A stretch of 64,000 nt of DNA from contig OY740811.1 of assembly GCA_963514005.1 (NCBI GenBank), positions 27,714,001 through 27,778,000 on the forward strand. The letters are read 5' to 3'. Position 1 is the first letter of the stretch, and each line of letters begins with the position of its first letter. Source of the stretch: Raja brachyura. Its lineage: Eukaryota. The position numbers were made by a program. Below, piece by piece: positions 1 to 33,000 of the stretch.

Positions 1-3000
1 GTCCTCTTCAGAAACACATTTAACAACATCAAGTTTATCACAGGTAACTGAGTCCTCAACAGAAACATATTCCACATCGACACAGGTCACATCAAAAACT
101 GAATCACCCTCAGAAAGCCATCAGACCACTGAAGTGCCTTCAAGCTCCTTGACCTCATCAAAAACACATCCAACAACATCACCGGAATCATCATCAACGG
201 AGCTTCCAACAACAGCATATCCAACATTGACAACTGCTTCATCTGTTAGTGTGTCCCCATCTGAAACCCACCTAACAACAACACCACTATCATCGCCAAT
301 TCAGTCCTCAGCAGAGACCTATCCAACAACACAAACATCCACAAACAAACCTTCATCAGAAACACATCCAACAACAGTGGAATCATCAAGCACACAGCAT
401 ACAACACAAGCACATCAAAGCTCAACTGAAGTTTCATCAGTCACTGTGTCGCCAGTTGAATCCCACTCCACAACCTCATCATCTTCATTGGTTACTGAAT
501 CCCCGTCAGAAACACATTCAACATCTGCACAAGCATCAGTGACAACTGAAACTTCATCGGAATCCCATCCAACTACACATGCATCTCGAATCACAATGTC
601 CTCTTCAGAAAGACAGCCAACAGCACATGAATCATCAAGTACAGAGCAGACAACACAAACTCATGGAACAACATCTGAAATTTCCTCAGAAAGTGCGTCC
701 TCATCAAAATCCCTCGCAACAGCAACAACGTCACCTTTGGTCACTGAGAGCTCAACGGTAACTTATTCTCAATCATCGCAAATCACATCCTCCAACAAAT
801 CTGCAATAGTATCACATCCAACGACAGAAGAATCATCGATCACCGTCTCCTCACCTGAAGCACATCAGACAAATACACAGGAACCATTTACATCGACATA
901 TCCAAAGACAACACAAGCTTCAACAGAAACTATTTTGACAACAGAAACACATTTAACAACACCAATCTCAAAGCAAACGGAGCCTCCATCAGTAACCTAT
1001 CCACGCACAACAGAAGACTTATCCACAACAGAATTTTCCTCACCAACACCGAATGGTAGACAGGCATCAGCAACCACATTGTCCACAGCTGAAACACGGT
1101 CAGAAACGCAGGAATCAATAAGAACGGAGCATTCAACACAAACCTTTGCAAGCACGACACAGAATTCTTCAGAAAGTGTGCCCGTTTCAGAACCACATTT
1201 CACAACGCAATTTTCAGCCACGATACATTCCTCATCGGAATCATATTCCACATCAGTGAAAGCTTCCTCAACAACAGAACCTTCATCAGAATCACATCCT
1301 ACAATAGCAGCATCCACAATTGCCACATCCTCTCTGGAAACATCTCCAAACACCCAGCAATCTTCAAGGACTGAACTATCAACACAATCCAATCCAAGCA
1401 CAACCAATGTTTCATCAGTCACCGAGTCCTCTTCAGAAACACATTTAACAACATCAAGTTTATCACAGGTAACTGAGTCCTCAACAGAAACATATTCCAC
1501 ATCGACACAGGTCACATCAAAAACTGAATCACCCTCAGAAAGCCATCAGACCACTGAAGTGCCTTCAAGCTCCTTGACCTCATCAAAAACACATCCAACA
1601 ACATCACCGGAATCATCATCAACGGAGCTTCCAACAACAGCATATCCAACATTGACAACTGCTTCATCTGTTAGTGTGTCCCCATCTGAAACCCACCTAA
1701 CAACAACACCACTATCATCGCCAATTCAGTCCTCAGCAGAGACCTATCCAACAACACAAACATCCACAAACAAACCTTCATCAGAAACACATCCAACAAC
1801 AGTGGAATCATCAAGCACACAGCATACAACACAAGCACATCAAAGCTCAACTGAAGTTTCATCAGTCACTGCGTCGCCAGTTGAATCCCACTCCACAACC
1901 TCATCATCTTCATTGGTTACTGAATCCCCGTCAGAAACACATTCAACATCTGCACAAGCATCAGTGACAACTGAAACTTCATCGGAATCCCATCCAACTA
2001 CACATGCATCTCGAATCACAATGTCCTCTTCAGAAAGACAGCCAACAGCACATGAATCATCAAGTACAGAGCAGACAACACAAACTCATGGAACAACATC
2101 TGAAATTTCCTCAGAAAGTGCGTCCTCATCAAAATCCCTCGCAACAGCAACAACGTCACCTTTGGTCACTGAGAGCTCAACGGTAACTTATTCTCAATCA
2201 TCGCAAATCACATCCTCCAACAAATCTGCAATAGTATCACATTCAACGACAGAAGAATCATCGATCACAGTCTCCTCACCTGAAGCACATCAGACAAATA
2301 CACAGGAACCATTTACATCGACATATCCAAAGACAACACAAGCTTCAACAGAAACTATTTTGACAACAGAAACACATTTAACAACACCAATCTCAAAGCA
2401 AACGGAGCCTCCATCAGTAACCTATCCACGCACAACAGAAGACTTATCCACAACAGAATTTTCCTCACCAACACCGAATGGTAGACAGGCATCAGCAACC
2501 ACATTGTCCACAGCTGAAACACGGTCAGAAACGCAGGAATCAATAAGAACGGAGCATTCAACACAAACCTTTGCAAGCACGACACAGAATTCTTCAGAAA
2601 GTGTGCCCGTTTCAGAACCACATTTCACAACGCAATTTTCAGCCACGATACATTCCTCATCGGAATCATATTCCACATCAGTGAAAGCTTCCTCAACAAC
2701 AGAACCTTCATCAGAATCACATCCTACAATAGCAGCATCCACAATTGCCACATCCTCTCTGGAAACATCTCCAAACACCCAGCAATCTTCAAGGACTGAA
2801 CTATCAACACAATCCAATCCAAGCACAACCAATGTTTCATCAGTCACCGAGTCCTCTTCAGAAACACATTTAACAACATCAAGTTTATCACAGGTAACTG
2901 AGTCCTCAACAGAAACATATTCCACATCGACACAGGTCACATCAAAAACTGAATCACCCTCAGAAAGCCATCAGACCACTGAAGTGCCTTCAAGCTCCTT

Positions 3001-30000: not shown

Positions 30001-33000
30001 ATCGACACAGGTCACATCAAAAACTGAATCACCCTCAGAAAGCCATCAGACCACTGAAGTGCCTTCAAGCTCCTTGACCTCATCAAAAACACATCCAACA
30101 ACATCACCGGAATCATCATTAACGGAGCTTGCAACAACAGCATATCCAACATTGACAACTGCTTCATCTGTTAGTGTGTCCCCATCTGAAACCCACCTAA
30201 CAACAACACCACTATCATCGCCAACTCAGTCCTCAGCAGAGACCTATCCAACAACACAAACATCCACAAACAAACCTTCATCAGAAACACATCCAACAAC
30301 AGTGGAATCGTCAAGCATACAGCAAACAACGCAAGCGCCTTCAAGCTCCATGTCCTCATCTAAAACACATCGAACAACATTACATGAATCATCAACCAGA
30401 ATGCCATTCACAACTAAGATGACTACAAGTAAAATTAATTCCCTCAGTTCAGTTCATTCAACGTCGAAAGTTTCAACACATCCATATACTGTATCATCTA
30501 CCCTGGCTCCAGCACTGGACTACTGCAGTAGATGCAGTTGCCTGAATGGAGGTATTTGTAATTCAAGTGCAACAACAAAAGATCACTGCGTGTGTGATTG
30601 TCCTACAGATACTTATGGTACTTCTTGTGAATATGGACTTAACAATACCCTTGCTGTACCCGGTAAGTAAATTGCATTATTGTGGAATTTGAATGTCATA
30701 AATGTTGATATTTATATTCTGCCCATATAGCTTAATAAGAGAATACAACATGTAGTCAAATGTAGTTAATCTGACAACTGGGAAGGTTATTGTACATGTG
30801 ATCGCCACCAATGGGGATTGTGAAATTTGAACCGACGTTAAAATGCCTCAGCATAGCTTGGGAAAACAATGAGCAAACACCCCATTTCCTGATTGCTTTC
30901 TGTTTTTGTGGACATCAGGACTGAACGGATCAGGTTTCTGATTCAGCCTGTAGCGATTTCTCCCTATTTTACATAGAAAGATTGTCCTTTCAATAAGCAG
31001 TTGTCGAGGCATAACTGACCACATGGCTGGGATTGTTCCAATGTGTGTAGCTTTTCTGGTCTTCTTTTGCTGCAGGTCCAAACACACCAAAGAGAGAAGT
31101 TATTCTCAGATTTCGGATAAACGGTACCTGGGATGAACTGTGGAAAAACACTTCAAGCGTGCAATATAGAACGTATGTTCAACTTTTGATTGCAGAGGTT
31201 GGTATAGATGTCTTGAATTCATCTTGATGTCTTGATGTTTAGATTCATCAATACTTCAAATACACTTATATAATACATACTGTATCTTAAAAACTGATTT
31301 GTTATTAAATTATCTTTTTAGACTCGTGACATTATTCTGTAGCATTGTTTAGATAAAACCTGTCAGATTTACAGTAAAACAGTGACATGTTGAAGATTCT
31401 ATTCTGCGTGAGAATAAATAGCTAAAATAATTATTATCACTGCATTTTATACCACAATGTAAATTACTGAAAACAAACATTTACCTAGCCCCTGTCATCT
31501 TTACAAGCCAGTAAACTTTTTATGCCTGTGTTTAGCAAAAATAGTTGGTCGTCCTGGTAACCCAAACTAAAATACTGCAGATGCTGAAAAACTGAAATGA
31601 AATCAGAAAATGCTGGGAATATTCTGCGAGTCTGGCAGCAACTGGAGTTTATATTTCAGCTTTGTGATCTTTTATTGGTACACTAAAAAGTTAAAAATAA
31701 AATGAGTTTGATGCTGTAGAGTGAAAGGGAAAGGAAGGAAAGAATAAAGAGAAAGACTGTGATAGAGTGGCAATCAGGAGAAATTGAATGAGGCAATGTG
31801 ATGGTGCTAGCAAGAGGGTTGTAAACGCATGTCTGGAAATGGAAGGTGATGAACAAAATCTGAAATACCATCAGAGAAGTACGAAAAACTGAAAGCTGAT
31901 CATGGTAAACCCAATAATAGAGAGACTGACCAAATGAAATTGTTGAATTTCATTATACTCAAGTCAAAAGATGGGGCAACATTCCTTAAGCCTTTCTTGA
32001 GCTCTTTGGAACAATGCAGGAGGTCAATGCTAGAGAAGCCCAGCGCTGGGTTGTCGTGTTCATTGAGAAGCTTTCTGCAAAATGCTCTCTCTATCTACAT
32101 TTAGTTTCTCCAATATAGAAGAGGCCATATTATGAGTACTAAAATGCAGGATACTGTTCCACTTTCACGACCTAATTCACGACCTCTGCCGAGTTTGCCT
32201 TTGCCTCATACTCGCAGCATGGTAGTCACGAGGCCCTAGGAGGTCGGAGGAGGTCGTAGGTAGGTCGTAGGTAGGTCGTAGCAGGTCGTGATGCTAGTCG
32301 TAGGTACTCGTGGCATCAAGTAGGTCGGGACTTTTTTCCAACATGATCAAAAATGTCCACGAGTATAAAAGGTCGTGAATTAGGTCGTGAAAGTGGGACA
32401 AGCCCTTAAGTTACAGGAATTGCAACTACATCACAGCTAGGAATAATGTCTGGTCCATGAATGACGGGGCAGGGTGGTGGGGATGGTTGGTGGGGGGGGG
32501 GGGGGGGGGGGGGTGGACGAACACAAAGATCAGGTGTTGCATTTACGCTTTTATCTTCCCTCATCCTGTCAACCTGTCAAGGGATGCAAACACTCTTTAG
32601 GCTTGGTTTTATTATGTGTACCGATGTACAGTAAAAAACGTTGTTTTGCATGCTATCTTATTATAACATATTAACAATCAAGCCAAATTCAGATCCAATA
32701 AGTCAGGCAAATGGGGAGGTTGAGTGGTGTGGGCTGAATCACCTGCATCTCTTTAAAAGAATCAATGAAACAGGAAAGAACGACTGGAGGATTCATTTTT
32801 GCTATCTACTGCTTAAAGTTCTACTCCTCCCTGCGTAAGTTCTACTCCACCCTGTGTAGTAAAGGCCATAATAAGTTGGACATTGGAAATGTTTGAAATT
32901 GCCATTACAGTAAAGTAAAAACTGCTCTCTATGAGTGGAACTGAAGCTTGGAAAACTGGAACAGATCTGCCTGACGCCGTCAACTTGACAAGGTCACCAC

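What the first reader, a model, noticed from the sequence alone, without database searches (positions are those of the whole stretch)
1..30662. Exon of over 30 kb encoding a membrane mucin with an unusually long 475-aa repeat unit
At least 21 copies of a 1425-bp unit run with no stop, frameshift or indel that I could see, and splice cleanly onto EGF-SEA-EGF-TM exons. The ectodomain is therefore over 10,000 aa and its 5' end is outside the window. The commonly cited human units are far shorter (MUC3 17 aa, MUC12 28 aa, MUC17 59 aa). Loci like this are often collapsed or mis-annotated, so the full-length gene may be undescribed in this lineage (inference).
Basis: partly seen in the sequence, partly recalled or inferred. 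Interest (0 to 1): 0.7.

Follow-up and report, generated by a model that had tools for sequence, protein, structure and literature searches.

The report
Giant membrane mucin gene, cartilaginous fish
This is the 3' part of a gut-type (MUC3/12/17-like) membrane mucin gene, probably from a shark or ray, whose sugar-carrying stalk of over 10,000 amino acids lies in one 30-kb exon built from near-identical 475-residue blocks; it is a large but ordinary member of a known family.

Summary
One + strand frame is open from nt 2 to 30,667 (10,222 codons). It contains 21 full 1425-bp copies and 27% of a 22nd, 98-100% alike, with no indel and no stop.

The junction 30662/31076 is right. Eight further exons (31,076-46,366) follow, and the frame closes at 10,545 codons. 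Three database homologues (sawfish "mucin-17", a bamboo-shark protein and one unnamed protein) align exon for exon.

The SEA assignment rests on these homologues: Pfam SEA hits just below cut-off, a profile search against solved structures, an AlphaFold model with a beta-alpha-beta-beta-alpha-beta fold, and Foldseek top hits to MUC16 SEA. The window's own exons gave no Pfam SEA hit when searched singly.

Two qualifications:
- The 475-aa unit is a higher-order repeat of about 29 degenerate 16-17-aa subrepeats.
- Mucin exons of over 30 kb are already known in human (MUC3B 39,267 bp, MUC12 32,428 bp; PMC9578598).

All four cartilaginous-fish database models are 344-529 aa and lack the array, so the full-length form does look unannotated.

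Verdict: a new member of a known kind, of moderate interest. I do not take the window for human.

The parts
2..29926 (+). 21 full copies of a 1425-bp (475-codon) Ser/Thr-rich repeat, in frame; the 5' end lies outside the window
   Evidence: Lag-1425 identity is 0.977-1.0. Copies differ from the consensus by 1-20 nt. There are 76 distinct variants and no indel or stop. The unit is 50.3% S+T and 6.9% P, with no Cys or Trp.
29927..30311 (+). Partial 22nd copy (about 385 nt) that decays into unique sequence
   Evidence: Identity to the consensus is 0.97-1.0 up to offset ~360, 0.87 at 360, and 0.52 and lower after that.
30312..30662 (+). Unique Ser/Thr-rich linker and the first Cys-rich EGF-like module; end of the giant exon (donor GTAAGT at 30663, one base carried over)
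   Evidence: Sequence read. The region is 58% identical to P0001 residues 26-116 (E 7e-27). The only Pfam hit is a sub-threshold EGF-type match (PF21195, E 0.036).
31076..31197 (+). Exon 2: start of the SEA region (first strand and first helix)
   Evidence: Acceptor and donor read. tblastn hits from P0001, P0003 and P0005. No Pfam or PDB match when searched alone.
40239..40303 (+). Exon 3 (65 nt): middle of the SEA region, ending just before the conserved Gly-Ser
   Evidence: It is the only candidate passing the splice and phase scan of 31,198-41,573. Sequence read. It is 83% identical to P0001 residues 157-179.
41574..41770 (+). Exon 4: Gly-Ser-Ile-Ile-Ile site (position of SEA autocleavage in cleaving SEA domains) and the rest of the SEA region
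   Evidence: It was the query of the representative search that found the homologues. G, S and I are invariant in alignment A1.
42241..42403 (+). Exon 5: Cys-rich region and first part of the second EGF-like module
   Evidence: It is 45-58% identical to P0001, P0003 and P0005. The matching part of P0005 gives Pfam EGF at E 0.025, below cut-off.
43493..43654 (+). Exon 6: end of the second EGF-like module, the ~23-residue hydrophobic transmembrane segment and a basic stop-transfer stretch
   Evidence: It is 70% identical to P0001 and P0005. Only sub-threshold TM-type Pfam hits were found.
44950..45020 (+). Exon 7: cytoplasmic tail, part 1
   Evidence: Best splice candidate. It is 83% identical to P0001 residues 355-378.
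46062..46213 (+). Exon 8: cytoplasmic tail, part 2
   Evidence: The homologues read through the donor GAG|GTAAAT at 46213/4 and not into the in-frame stop.
46322..46366 (+). Exon 9: last 14 codons and the TGA stop (46364-46366); the C-terminus is not a class I PDZ motif
   Evidence: Sequence read. It aligns to the C-termini of P0001, P0003 and P0005.
33631..38300 (+). Decayed BEL/Pao-type retroelement inside the 9-kb intron (not part of the gene product)
   Evidence: Pfam Peptidase_A17 at E 2.4e-12 on 36210-36761, and rve at E 1.7e-4 on 37631-37975. The reading frames are broken. No direct repeats of 80 nt or more in 31,200-40,200.

Best explanation
The window holds the 3' 46 kb of a gene for a single-pass membrane mucin of the MUC3/MUC12/MUC17 type, most likely from a cartilaginous fish.

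Structure. One exon of at least 30,661 nt encodes an unstructured Ser/Thr-rich stalk carrying 5124 Ser/Thr within the window. It ends in an EGF-like module. Eight small exons add a SEA domain, a second Cys-rich/EGF-like module, a transmembrane helix and a tail of about 95 residues. At least 10,545 codons lie in the window.

Inferred function, from the family. The stalk is densely O-glycosylated and stiffened into a bottle-brush standing micrometres above the apical membrane, where it forms a glycocalyx that keeps microbes off the cell. The SEA domain is probably cleaved at its Gly-Ser site during folding and holds the two chains together non-covalently.

Origin of the array. It grew in two stages. 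An old 16-17-residue repeat degenerated. A block of about 29 such subrepeats (1425 bp) was then amplified recently by unequal crossing-over or gene conversion. Selection acts on keeping the frame open and the Ser/Thr content high, not on the exact sequence.
For: Shown here:
- The open frame and the array.
- Exon lengths sum to 31,635 nt = 3 x 10,545, so the phases close (coordinates).
- All nine coding pieces align in order to P0001, P0003 and P0005, at 41-83% identity per exon for P0001 and P0005 and 33-55% for P0003.
- NCBI names two homologues mucin-17 (Pristis pectinata) and mucin-3A (Paramormyrops kingsleyae).
- For P0001 residues 110-442, the nearest Atlas clusters are 'mucin-12' (0.97), 'Mucin-12 family' (0.97) and 'Mucin-17-like' (0.95). 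No MUC13 row appears.

SEA, tested on homologues:
- Pfam PF01390 gives E 1.2e-5 (25.8 bits against a cut-off of 26.4), 0.0013 and 0.02. PF01390 is precomputed for P0005 and P0006.
- The A1 profile against PDB hits the ADGRF1 SEA region (E 0.0026), the TMPRSS11D SEA chain (0.017) and mouse MUC16 SEA 1ivz (0.29).
- In the AlphaFold model of P0003, residues 23-138 form beta-alpha-beta-beta-alpha-beta at pLDDT 65-82.
- Foldseek ranks 1-3, 5 and 8 are MUC16 SEA, and rank 4 is TMPRSS6.

History of the array:
- Autocorrelation peaks at 16, 17, 33, 50, 66, 83, 99, 149, 165, 182, 198, 215 and 232 aa, z 3-6 against 200 shuffles.
- Neighbouring copies are more alike (mean 9.25 differences at lag 1 against about 12.5 at lag 5 and beyond). 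Shared variants sit in blocks of neighbours, with mosaics.

Selection:
- Variants are 24 synonymous, 52 non-synonymous and 0 stop, against a neutral expectation of 22.3, 50.4 and 3.3. There are no indels.
- Changes from Ser/Thr to another residue number 15 against 21.2 expected. Changes to Ser/Thr number 9 against 4.0 expected.

Function is inferred from the family: a PTS domain in one exon, SEA next to the membrane, and MUC17's 4073-aa PTS reaching about 1 um (PMC13643018, passages read).
Against: - The window's own SEA and EGF exons gave no Pfam SEA hit when searched one by one (0 of the 2 SEA exons then known, and 0 of 6 pieces in all). The 65-nt exon found later was not scanned alone. They gave no meaningful PDB hit either. 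SEA membership therefore rests on homologues and on weak statistics: all homologue Pfam scores are below the cut-off, Foldseek E is 7e-4 or worse, and TM by target is about 0.47-0.49.
- The EGF-like modules are supported only by Cys spacing and sub-threshold hits. The second one is modelled with pLDDT below 50.
- The C-terminus is not a class I PDZ motif, unlike all four human cluster members.
- The downstream neighbour is an ODAD1-like gene, not TRIM56 or ACHE.
- The family names come from automatic annotation and clustering, not from a phylogeny with named references.
- The 0-stop result is weak on its own (Poisson P about 0.04).
- No expression, splicing, glycosylation or read-depth data were available.
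- The database homologues are themselves predicted models.
Confidence: 0.85

Rival explanations
1. The gene is real, but the number of copies is an assembly product: a shorter or longer array was wrongly expanded or collapsed during assembly of near-identical 1.4-kb units.
For: The copies are 98-100% alike, which is the regime in which assemblers err. No read data could be consulted. The human reference had MUC3A and MUC12 arrays at about half their true length before the T2T assembly (PMC9578598, passages read).
Against: All 21 copies are distinct: 0 of 210 pairs are identical. No multi-unit block recurs exactly. Variants form a graded, locally clustered pattern with more divergence toward the 3' edge, as natural arrays do. 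There is no N or gap.
Confidence: 0.12
2. It is the orthologue of MUC13 (or of an ancestor shared by MUC13 and MUC3/12/17), not a member of the MUC3/12/17 branch. The 'mucin-17', 'mucin-3A' and 'mucin-12' labels would then be annotation transfer.
For: MUC13 also has PTS, SEA, EGF-like and TM parts. A 2006 survey found only Muc13 and a MUC1-like gene in pufferfish and no MUC3/12/17 homologue in chicken or fishes (PMC1552070, passages read). The class I PDZ motif and the mammalian flanking gene are both absent here. There are 10 Cys between SEA and TM, more than one EGF needs (11 sequence).
Against: The PTS domain is in one giant exon, as in the MUC3 cluster, whereas chicken Muc13 has it on many exons (PMC1552070). 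The nearest Atlas clusters are named mucin-12 and mucin-17-like, and none is named mucin-13. No HEG-like gene lies downstream.
Confidence: 0.1
3. The array is a non-coding satellite or a dead gene that happens to be open in one frame.
For: The synonymous to non-synonymous ratio among copies is at the neutral expectation (24:52 against 22.3:50.4). No expression data were available.
Against: One frame has 0 stops in 10,222 codons while the other five have 195-1557. The frame joins in phase to eight conserved exons, giving a total divisible by 3. There are no indels in 30 kb. Ser/Thr gains exceed expectation and losses fall short of it. Neutral-looking residue change is the norm for mucin repeats (PMC9417175, passages read).
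Confidence: 0.03

Closest known systems
Human chromosome 7q22 membrane mucins MUC3A, MUC3B, MUC12 and MUC17
   Same: They share a single giant PTS exon followed by small exons for SEA, EGF-like modules, TM and a short tail. Exon and protein sizes are of the same order (MUC3B 39,267 bp and 13,089 aa; MUC12 32,428 bp; PMC9578598). The basic periodicity of 16-17 aa is comparable to the 17-aa MUC3 repeat. The homologue's nearest Atlas clusters are named mucin-12 and mucin-17-like.
   Different: - The top-level repeat is a 475-aa block at about 99% identity, not a short unit.
- Pro is only 6.9%, against about 12% reported for MUC17 (PMC13643018).
- EGF1 is inside the PTS exon.
- There are 9 exons from the PTS exon to the stop, where human MUC3A/B have 11.
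- The C-terminus lacks the class I PDZ motif.
- The downstream neighbour is ODAD1-like, not TRIM56 or ACHE.

No alignment to human sequences was made.
Predicted 'mucin-17' of Pristis pectinata (P0001, 442 aa) and its shark relatives P0005, P0006 and P0003
   Same: The EGF1-SEA-EGF2-TM-tail module is the same, at 44-83% identity per exon for P0001. The Gly-Ser-Ile site is the same, and so is the highly conserved tail.
   Different: These models are 344-529 aa. They start inside or just before EGF1, so they hold 0 to about 150 residues of Ser/Thr-rich sequence and no array. One is named 'interphotoreceptor matrix proteoglycan 2'. The Ser/Thr-rich parts do not align with the window's unit (P0001 1-25, E 2.8).
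MUC13
   Same: It has PTS, SEA and EGF-like modules, a TM segment and a short tail, and it is reported from fish and chicken (PMC1552070).
   Different: In chicken its PTS domain is spread over many exons, one repeat per exon, and it lies next to HEG (PMC1552070). Here the PTS domain is one exon, and no HEG-like gene lies downstream.
Mucins with long or composite repeats (MUC16 156-aa units, MUC6 169-aa units, MUC5B 528-aa super-repeat)
   Same: They show that long or hierarchical repeat units occur in mucins.
   Different: The MUC16 units contain SEA domains and the MUC5B super-repeat contains Cys subdomains, whereas the unit here is pure Ser/Thr-rich sequence.

Membership tests
MUC3/MUC12/MUC17 membrane mucins | [quoted passage not shown] | tested here: met
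   The frame is open over 30,661 nt without interruption. The unit is 50.3% Ser+Thr and 6.9% Pro. The 5' end of the exon is not in the window. The feature is as defined in PMC13643018 (passages read).
MUC3/MUC12/MUC17 membrane mucins | Juxtamembrane SEA domain with a Gly-Ser autocleavage site | tested here: met
   A Gly-Ser-Ile-Ile-Ile site lies at 41,578-41,592, and G, S and I are invariant in A1. The homologues give Pfam SEA at E 1.2e-5 to 0.02, just below cut-off, PDB profile hits to SEA domains, a beta-alpha-beta-beta-alpha-beta model and Foldseek top hits to MUC16 SEA. The window's exons searched alone gave 0 SEA hits. The joined domain was not searched. Cleavage itself cannot be tested here.
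MUC3/MUC12/MUC17 membrane mucins | EGF-like modules on both sides of the SEA domain | tested here: inconclusive
   There are 8 Cys before the SEA region (30,520-30,640) and 10 Cys after it (exons at 42,241 and 43,493). Only sub-threshold hits were found: PF21195 at E 0.036 and PF00008 at E 0.025 on P0005. The model has low confidence there.
MUC3/MUC12/MUC17 membrane mucins | Single transmembrane helix and short cytoplasmic tail | tested here: met
   A ~23-residue hydrophobic run is followed by basic residues in exon 43,493-43,654. It forms helix 221-252 in the P0003 model. The tail is about 95 residues over three exons.
MUC3/MUC12/MUC17 membrane mucins | Class I PDZ-binding motif at the C-terminus (conserved in the human cluster) | tested here: not met
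   The last three residues are Val-Glu-Gln. The four cartilaginous-fish homologues end in DEQ, ARE, GEH and DEP. The motif is as described in PMC9578598 and PMC13643018.
MUC3/MUC12/MUC17 membrane mucins | Position between ACHE and TRIM56 (mammals) | tested here: not met
   The downstream neighbour on the same strand is an ODAD1-like coiled-coil gene. PF21773 hits four collinear exons at E 4.5e-22 to 1.7e-9. The upstream side is outside the window. Synteny over this distance may simply not be conserved.
MUC3/MUC12/MUC17 membrane mucins | Closer in sequence to MUC3/12/17 than to other SEA mucins | tested here: inconclusive
   The evidence is from automatic names only: NCBI mucin-17 and mucin-3A, and Atlas clusters mucin-12 and Mucin-17-like at 0.95-0.97 with 198-217 of 256 features shared. 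No tree with named references could be built.
MUC13 | PTS domain on multiple exons (chicken) and adjacency to HEG | tested here: not met
   The PTS domain is a single exon, and no HEG-like gene lies in the 17 kb downstream. The feature is taken from PMC1552070.

The most novel reading that the evidence does not exclude
The MUC3/12/17-type glycocalyx mucin is not a late (mammalian) invention, as a 2006 survey suggested. It was already present in the common ancestor of cartilaginous and bony vertebrates. In this lineage it has recently ballooned, by amplification of a 1.4-kb higher-order block, into a protein of at least 10,545 residues, with one of the largest coding exons known. It is anchored without the PDZ motif that holds the mammalian proteins in the brush border. 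Current elasmobranch annotations, at 344-529 aa, miss more than 95% of it.
Probability: 0.5. Interest if true: 0.45.

Novelty: new member of a known kind. Interest (0 to 1): 0.33.

Why it matters
Membrane mucins of this type build the enterocyte glycocalyx, and their length sets how far microbes are kept from the cell.

This locus gives a resolved example outside mammals of a family whose arrays were missing or halved even in the human reference until 2022.

It suggests the family is as old as jawed vertebrates. A 2006 survey found no homologue in chicken or fishes (PMC1552070).

It shows plainly how a mucin domain grows: an old 16-17-aa repeat degenerates, and a 29-subrepeat block is then amplified and homogenised. 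Selection is visible only on frame and Ser/Thr content.

In practice, gene models for this locus in sharks and rays are truncated to the C-terminal module, and one carries an unrelated name. Proteomic and comparative studies using those models will miss the mucin.

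Tried and rejected
- Pfam on the window's exon translations one at a time and on the 475-aa unit gave no SEA hit and only sub-threshold noise.
- phmmer against PDB with the two larger SEA exons gave 0 hits and chance hits.
- A word-indexed protein search with the unit among proteins of 833-2375 aa gave 0 hits.
- The same search with the last 301 residues of the big exon among proteins of 5500-17,500 aa gave 0 hits.
- The Atlas search with the unit had a best score of 0.78 (the Ser/Thr-rich part of a viral glycoprotein G), which is compositional only and was rejected.
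- Of the 5 hits in the representative search, P0002 and P0004 are unrelated repetitive proteins and were dropped.
- Rfam at gathering thresholds gave 0 matches in the whole window.
- A search for LTR pairs around the intronic retroelement found none of 80 nt or more.
- I considered a direct join of exon 31,076-31,197 to 41,574 or 41,579. I rejected it because the phases do not fit, or the join would delete a SEA strand. The 65-nt exon at 40,239 resolves this and is confirmed by the homologues.
- I considered the in-frame stop at 46,220 as the gene's end. I rejected it because three homologues continue into the exon at 46,322.
- A literature check for the recalled 375-aa MUC3 unit found nothing usable.
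- The 2016 mucin evolution paper treats gel-forming mucins only.
- Supplementary files of papers were not opened. Those of PMC9578598 and PMC9417175 may hold repeat-unit tables that bear on how unusual 475 aa is.

Full report
**The observation**

The window contains no N. On the + strand, frame 2 is open from nt 2 to a stop at 30,668-30,670, which is 10,222 codons. The other five frames over 1-30,662 carry 195-1557 stops and no open stretch longer than 182 aa.

Identity at a lag of 1425 nt is 0.977-1.000 in all 475-nt windows from nt 1 to 28,026. It then drops to 0.895 and to about 0.3. In register from nt 2 there are 21 full copies, then about 385 nt of a 22nd copy that decays into unique sequence. 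The array runs off the 5' edge of the window. TRF cannot report a period of 1425, but its small internal repeats recur every 1425 nt. Base skews are strong over the array (GC skew -0.40 to -0.46, AT skew +0.29 to +0.32) and end at 30-32 kb.

It is far beyond chance, because one frame has no stop while the others have roughly 9 to 74 per unit.

**The unit and the history of the array**

The 475-aa consensus is 50.3% Ser+Thr, 6.9% Pro, 9.7% acidic and 3.2% basic. It has no Cys or Trp and three N-x-S/T sequons. The big exon holds 5124 Ser/Thr within the window.

The unit is not a primary repeat:
- Glu-Ser/Thr-His/Tyr motifs recur at gaps of 17, 17, 50, 17, 15, 33, 17 and 17 residues.
- The circular autocorrelation of the unit peaks at 16, 17, 33, 49-50, 66-67, 82-83, 99, 149, 165, 182, 198, 215 and 232 residues, at z = 3-6 against 200 shuffles. 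These are multiples of about 16.5.
- Internal nucleotide matches are only 65-76% identical.

The 1425-bp block is thus a higher-order repeat of about 29 old, degenerate 16-17-aa subrepeats that was amplified recently.

The 21 copies differ from their consensus by 1-20 nt, with more differences toward the 3' end. None of the 210 pairs is identical. Neighbours are more alike (9.25 differences at lag 1 against about 12.5 at lag 5 or more). Shared variants sit in runs of neighbours (copies 14-15, 10-13, 17-21), with mosaics such as copies 6-7 sharing variants with 17-21. This is the pattern expected from unequal exchange and conversion in a real array, but it does not prove the copy number.

**Selection**

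Among 76 distinct variants, 24 are synonymous, 52 non-synonymous and 0 are stops. A mutation model with the observed transition/transversion split expects 22.3, 50.4 and 3.3. There are no indels at all. Changes that remove Ser/Thr are fewer than expected (15 against 21.2), and changes that create Ser/Thr are more frequent (9 against 4.0).

The exact residues therefore drift, while the frame, and to a lesser degree the Ser/Thr load, are kept. This agrees with what is reported for mammalian mucin repeats (PMC9417175, passages read). Each of these signals is weak on its own.

**The gene model**

The big exon ends at 30,662 with a consensus donor and one base carried over. Its last ~350 nt are a unique Ser/Thr-rich linker and a Cys-rich EGF-like module.

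The downstream exons, read from the sequence and checked for phase, are 31,076-31,197, 40,239-40,303, 41,574-41,770, 42,241-42,403, 43,493-43,654, 44,950-45,020, 46,062-46,213 and 46,322-46,366 including the TGA.

The 65-nt exon at 40,239 was needed to reconcile the phases. It was the single candidate passing a crude splice and phase scan of 31,198-41,573 (the weight tables were recalled approximations). The coding lengths add to 31,635 nt = 3 x 10,545.

**Homologues**

A full-library HMMER search with the 65-aa translation of exon 41,574-41,770 returned 5 proteins at E <= 0.001. Three are true relatives: P0001 (E 8e-14, 65% identical), P0003 and P0005. Two are unrelated repetitive proteins, which I dropped.

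tblastn of the three relatives against the window hits all nine coding pieces, in order and at the predicted boundaries. This includes the 65-nt exon (83% identical to P0001) and the last 14-codon exon.

A further search named P0001 'mucin-17 [Pristis pectinata]' and P0005 a partial hypothetical protein of Chiloscyllium punctatum. It added P0006, 'interphotoreceptor matrix proteoglycan 2 [Heptranchias perlo]', and P0007, 'mucin-3A [Paramormyrops kingsleyae]'.

The window is closest to the sawfish protein. Its introns carry a decayed BEL/Pao element (Peptidase_A17 at E 2.4e-12; rve at E 1.7e-4) and several copies of a LINE-tail-like ORF that I recall as typical of cartilaginous fishes (recalled, not tested). 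I infer that the source is an elasmobranch, and I do not take the window for human.

**Is it a SEA mucin of the MUC3/12/17 kind?**

Searched alone, the window's exons give no Pfam SEA hit (0 of the 2 SEA exons then known; the 65-nt exon was not scanned) and no meaningful PDB hit.

The homologues give the following:
- Pfam SEA at E 1.2e-5 (25.8 bits; cut-off 26.4), 0.0013 and 0.02. Two carry precomputed PF01390.
- A profile of five homologues (A1) finds the SEA region of ADGRF1 (E 0.0026), the SEA chain of TMPRSS11D (0.017) and mouse MUC16 SEA (0.29) among 9 PDB hits at E <= 1.
- An AlphaFold model of P0003 is poor overall (pLDDT 55.5). However, residues 23-138 fold as beta-alpha-beta-beta-alpha-beta at pLDDT 65-82.
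- Foldseek's best PDB matches to that model are MUC16 SEA domains (E 7e-4 to 2e-3, TM by target about 0.47-0.49), TMPRSS6 and 1ivz.

The Gly-Ser-Ile at the position of SEA autocleavage is invariant in A1 and present in the window.

The Atlas places P0001 residues 110-442 next to clusters named mucin-12 (0.97), Mucin-12 family (0.97) and Mucin-17-like (0.95). No MUC13 row appears.

Together with the single-exon PTS domain, this fits the MUC3/12/17 architecture described in PMC13643018 and PMC9578598 (passages read).

Two family traits are not met. The C-terminus (Val-Glu-Gln, and likewise none of the cartilaginous-fish homologues) is not a class I PDZ motif. The downstream neighbour is an ODAD1-like gene rather than TRIM56 or ACHE. 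The EGF-like modules rest on Cys spacing and sub-threshold hits only. The branch assignment (MUC3/12/17 against MUC13) rests on automatic names, not on a tree.

**How it most likely works (inferred from the family)**

The stalk is O-glycosylated on a large share of its 5000 or more Ser/Thr and extends as a stiff bottle-brush. MUC17's 4073-aa PTS domain is reported to reach about 1 um (PMC13643018). Proportional scaling would give 2.5 um or more here. The SEA domain would cleave at Gly-Ser during folding and hold the stalk to the membrane stub non-covalently. The strongly conserved tail points to a conserved intracellular partner, but not through a C-terminal class I PDZ site.

**Comparison and novelty**

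Exons of this size are known in the family. In the T2T human genome the PTS exons are 15,873 bp (MUC3A), 39,267 bp and 13,089 aa (MUC3B) and 32,428 bp (MUC12). MUC3A and MUC3B have 166 and 549 perfect 17-aa repeats (PMC9578598). The size is therefore not new, and the basic period here is similar.

What is particular is the clean 475-aa higher-order block at about 99% identity. I also recall long or composite units in MUC16, MUC6 and MUC5B, but I did not check these.

On annotation, all four cartilaginous-fish models are 344-529 aa and start at or shortly before EGF1. No protein of 833-2375 aa carries the unit (the tool notes this is weak evidence). None of 5500-17,500 aa carries the unit or the tail of the exon. 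Other size classes were not searched.

On literature, a full-text search for mucin, elasmobranch, shark, skate, 'SEA domain' and 'membrane mucin' found 46 papers with at least 4 of the 6 terms. None of the 12 listed holds 'membrane mucin'. A shark-skin proteome paper reports only gel-forming mucins (PMC10707392). A 2006 survey stated that MUC3/12/17 homologues seemed to be missing in chicken and fishes (PMC1552070). The 2016 follow-up treats gel-forming mucins only. I did not see supplements.

**Verdict**

The finding is real and correctly interpreted. It is a new, very large member of a known family, with a two-level repeat structure and a truncated annotation history in its lineage.

Still open are the true copy number, expression and splicing, SEA cleavage, the upstream end of the gene, and a proper phylogenetic placement relative to MUC13.

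Noticed in passing
window 53,806-63,421 (+), running on toward the window's end: An ODAD1/CCDC114-like outer-dynein-arm docking gene lies tail-to-head downstream of the mucin gene. Pfam ODAD1_CC hits four collinear exons: 59,522-59,746, 61,506-61,811, 62,404-62,592 and 63,206-63,421 (E 2.7e-12, 4.5e-22, 1.7e-9 and 2.3e-10). Likely earlier coiled-coil exons at about 53,806 and 54,933-55,370 gave no above-threshold family.
   Followed up: partly
window 33,631-38,300 (+): A decayed BEL/Pao-type retroelement sits in the 9-kb intron inside the SEA region. It has broken gag/protease/RT/integrase frames (Peptidase_A17 at E 2.4e-12; rve at E 1.7e-4). A LINE-tail-like piece lies on the other strand at 35,474-35,869. 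No LTR pair of 80 nt or more was found in 31,200-40,200.
   Followed up: partly
window 35,474-35,869 (-), 43,881-44,210 (+), 48,600-48,800 (-), 51,684-52,124 (+), 56,263-56,697 (-), 62,839-63,021 (+): Many fragments of one interspersed element share a conserved ORF tail, seen in the ORF list. Pfam found no family for the two that were tested. I recall this tail as abundant in shark and ray genomes, but did not test that.
   Followed up: no
P0006 (database protein, Heptranchias perlo): An orthologue of this mucin's C-terminal module is named 'interphotoreceptor matrix proteoglycan 2' in the source record. It aligns over its whole length with the mucin-17-like proteins (57% identical to P0001), so the name looks like a mis-transfer through the shared SEA domain.
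   Followed up: partly
window 32,237-32,306 and 32,406-32,634: A 10-11-nt microsatellite of about 6 copies lies in the same intron, followed by a G-rich/C-rich simple stretch that reads as poly-Gly on one strand and poly-Pro on the other.
   Followed up: no
alignment A1, tail columns; window 44,950-46,366: The cytoplasmic tail is the best conserved part of the protein among cartilaginous fishes, with long identical runs in exons 7-9. This is unusual for mucin tails and suggests a conserved binding partner. None of the C-termini is a class I PDZ motif.
   Followed up: partly
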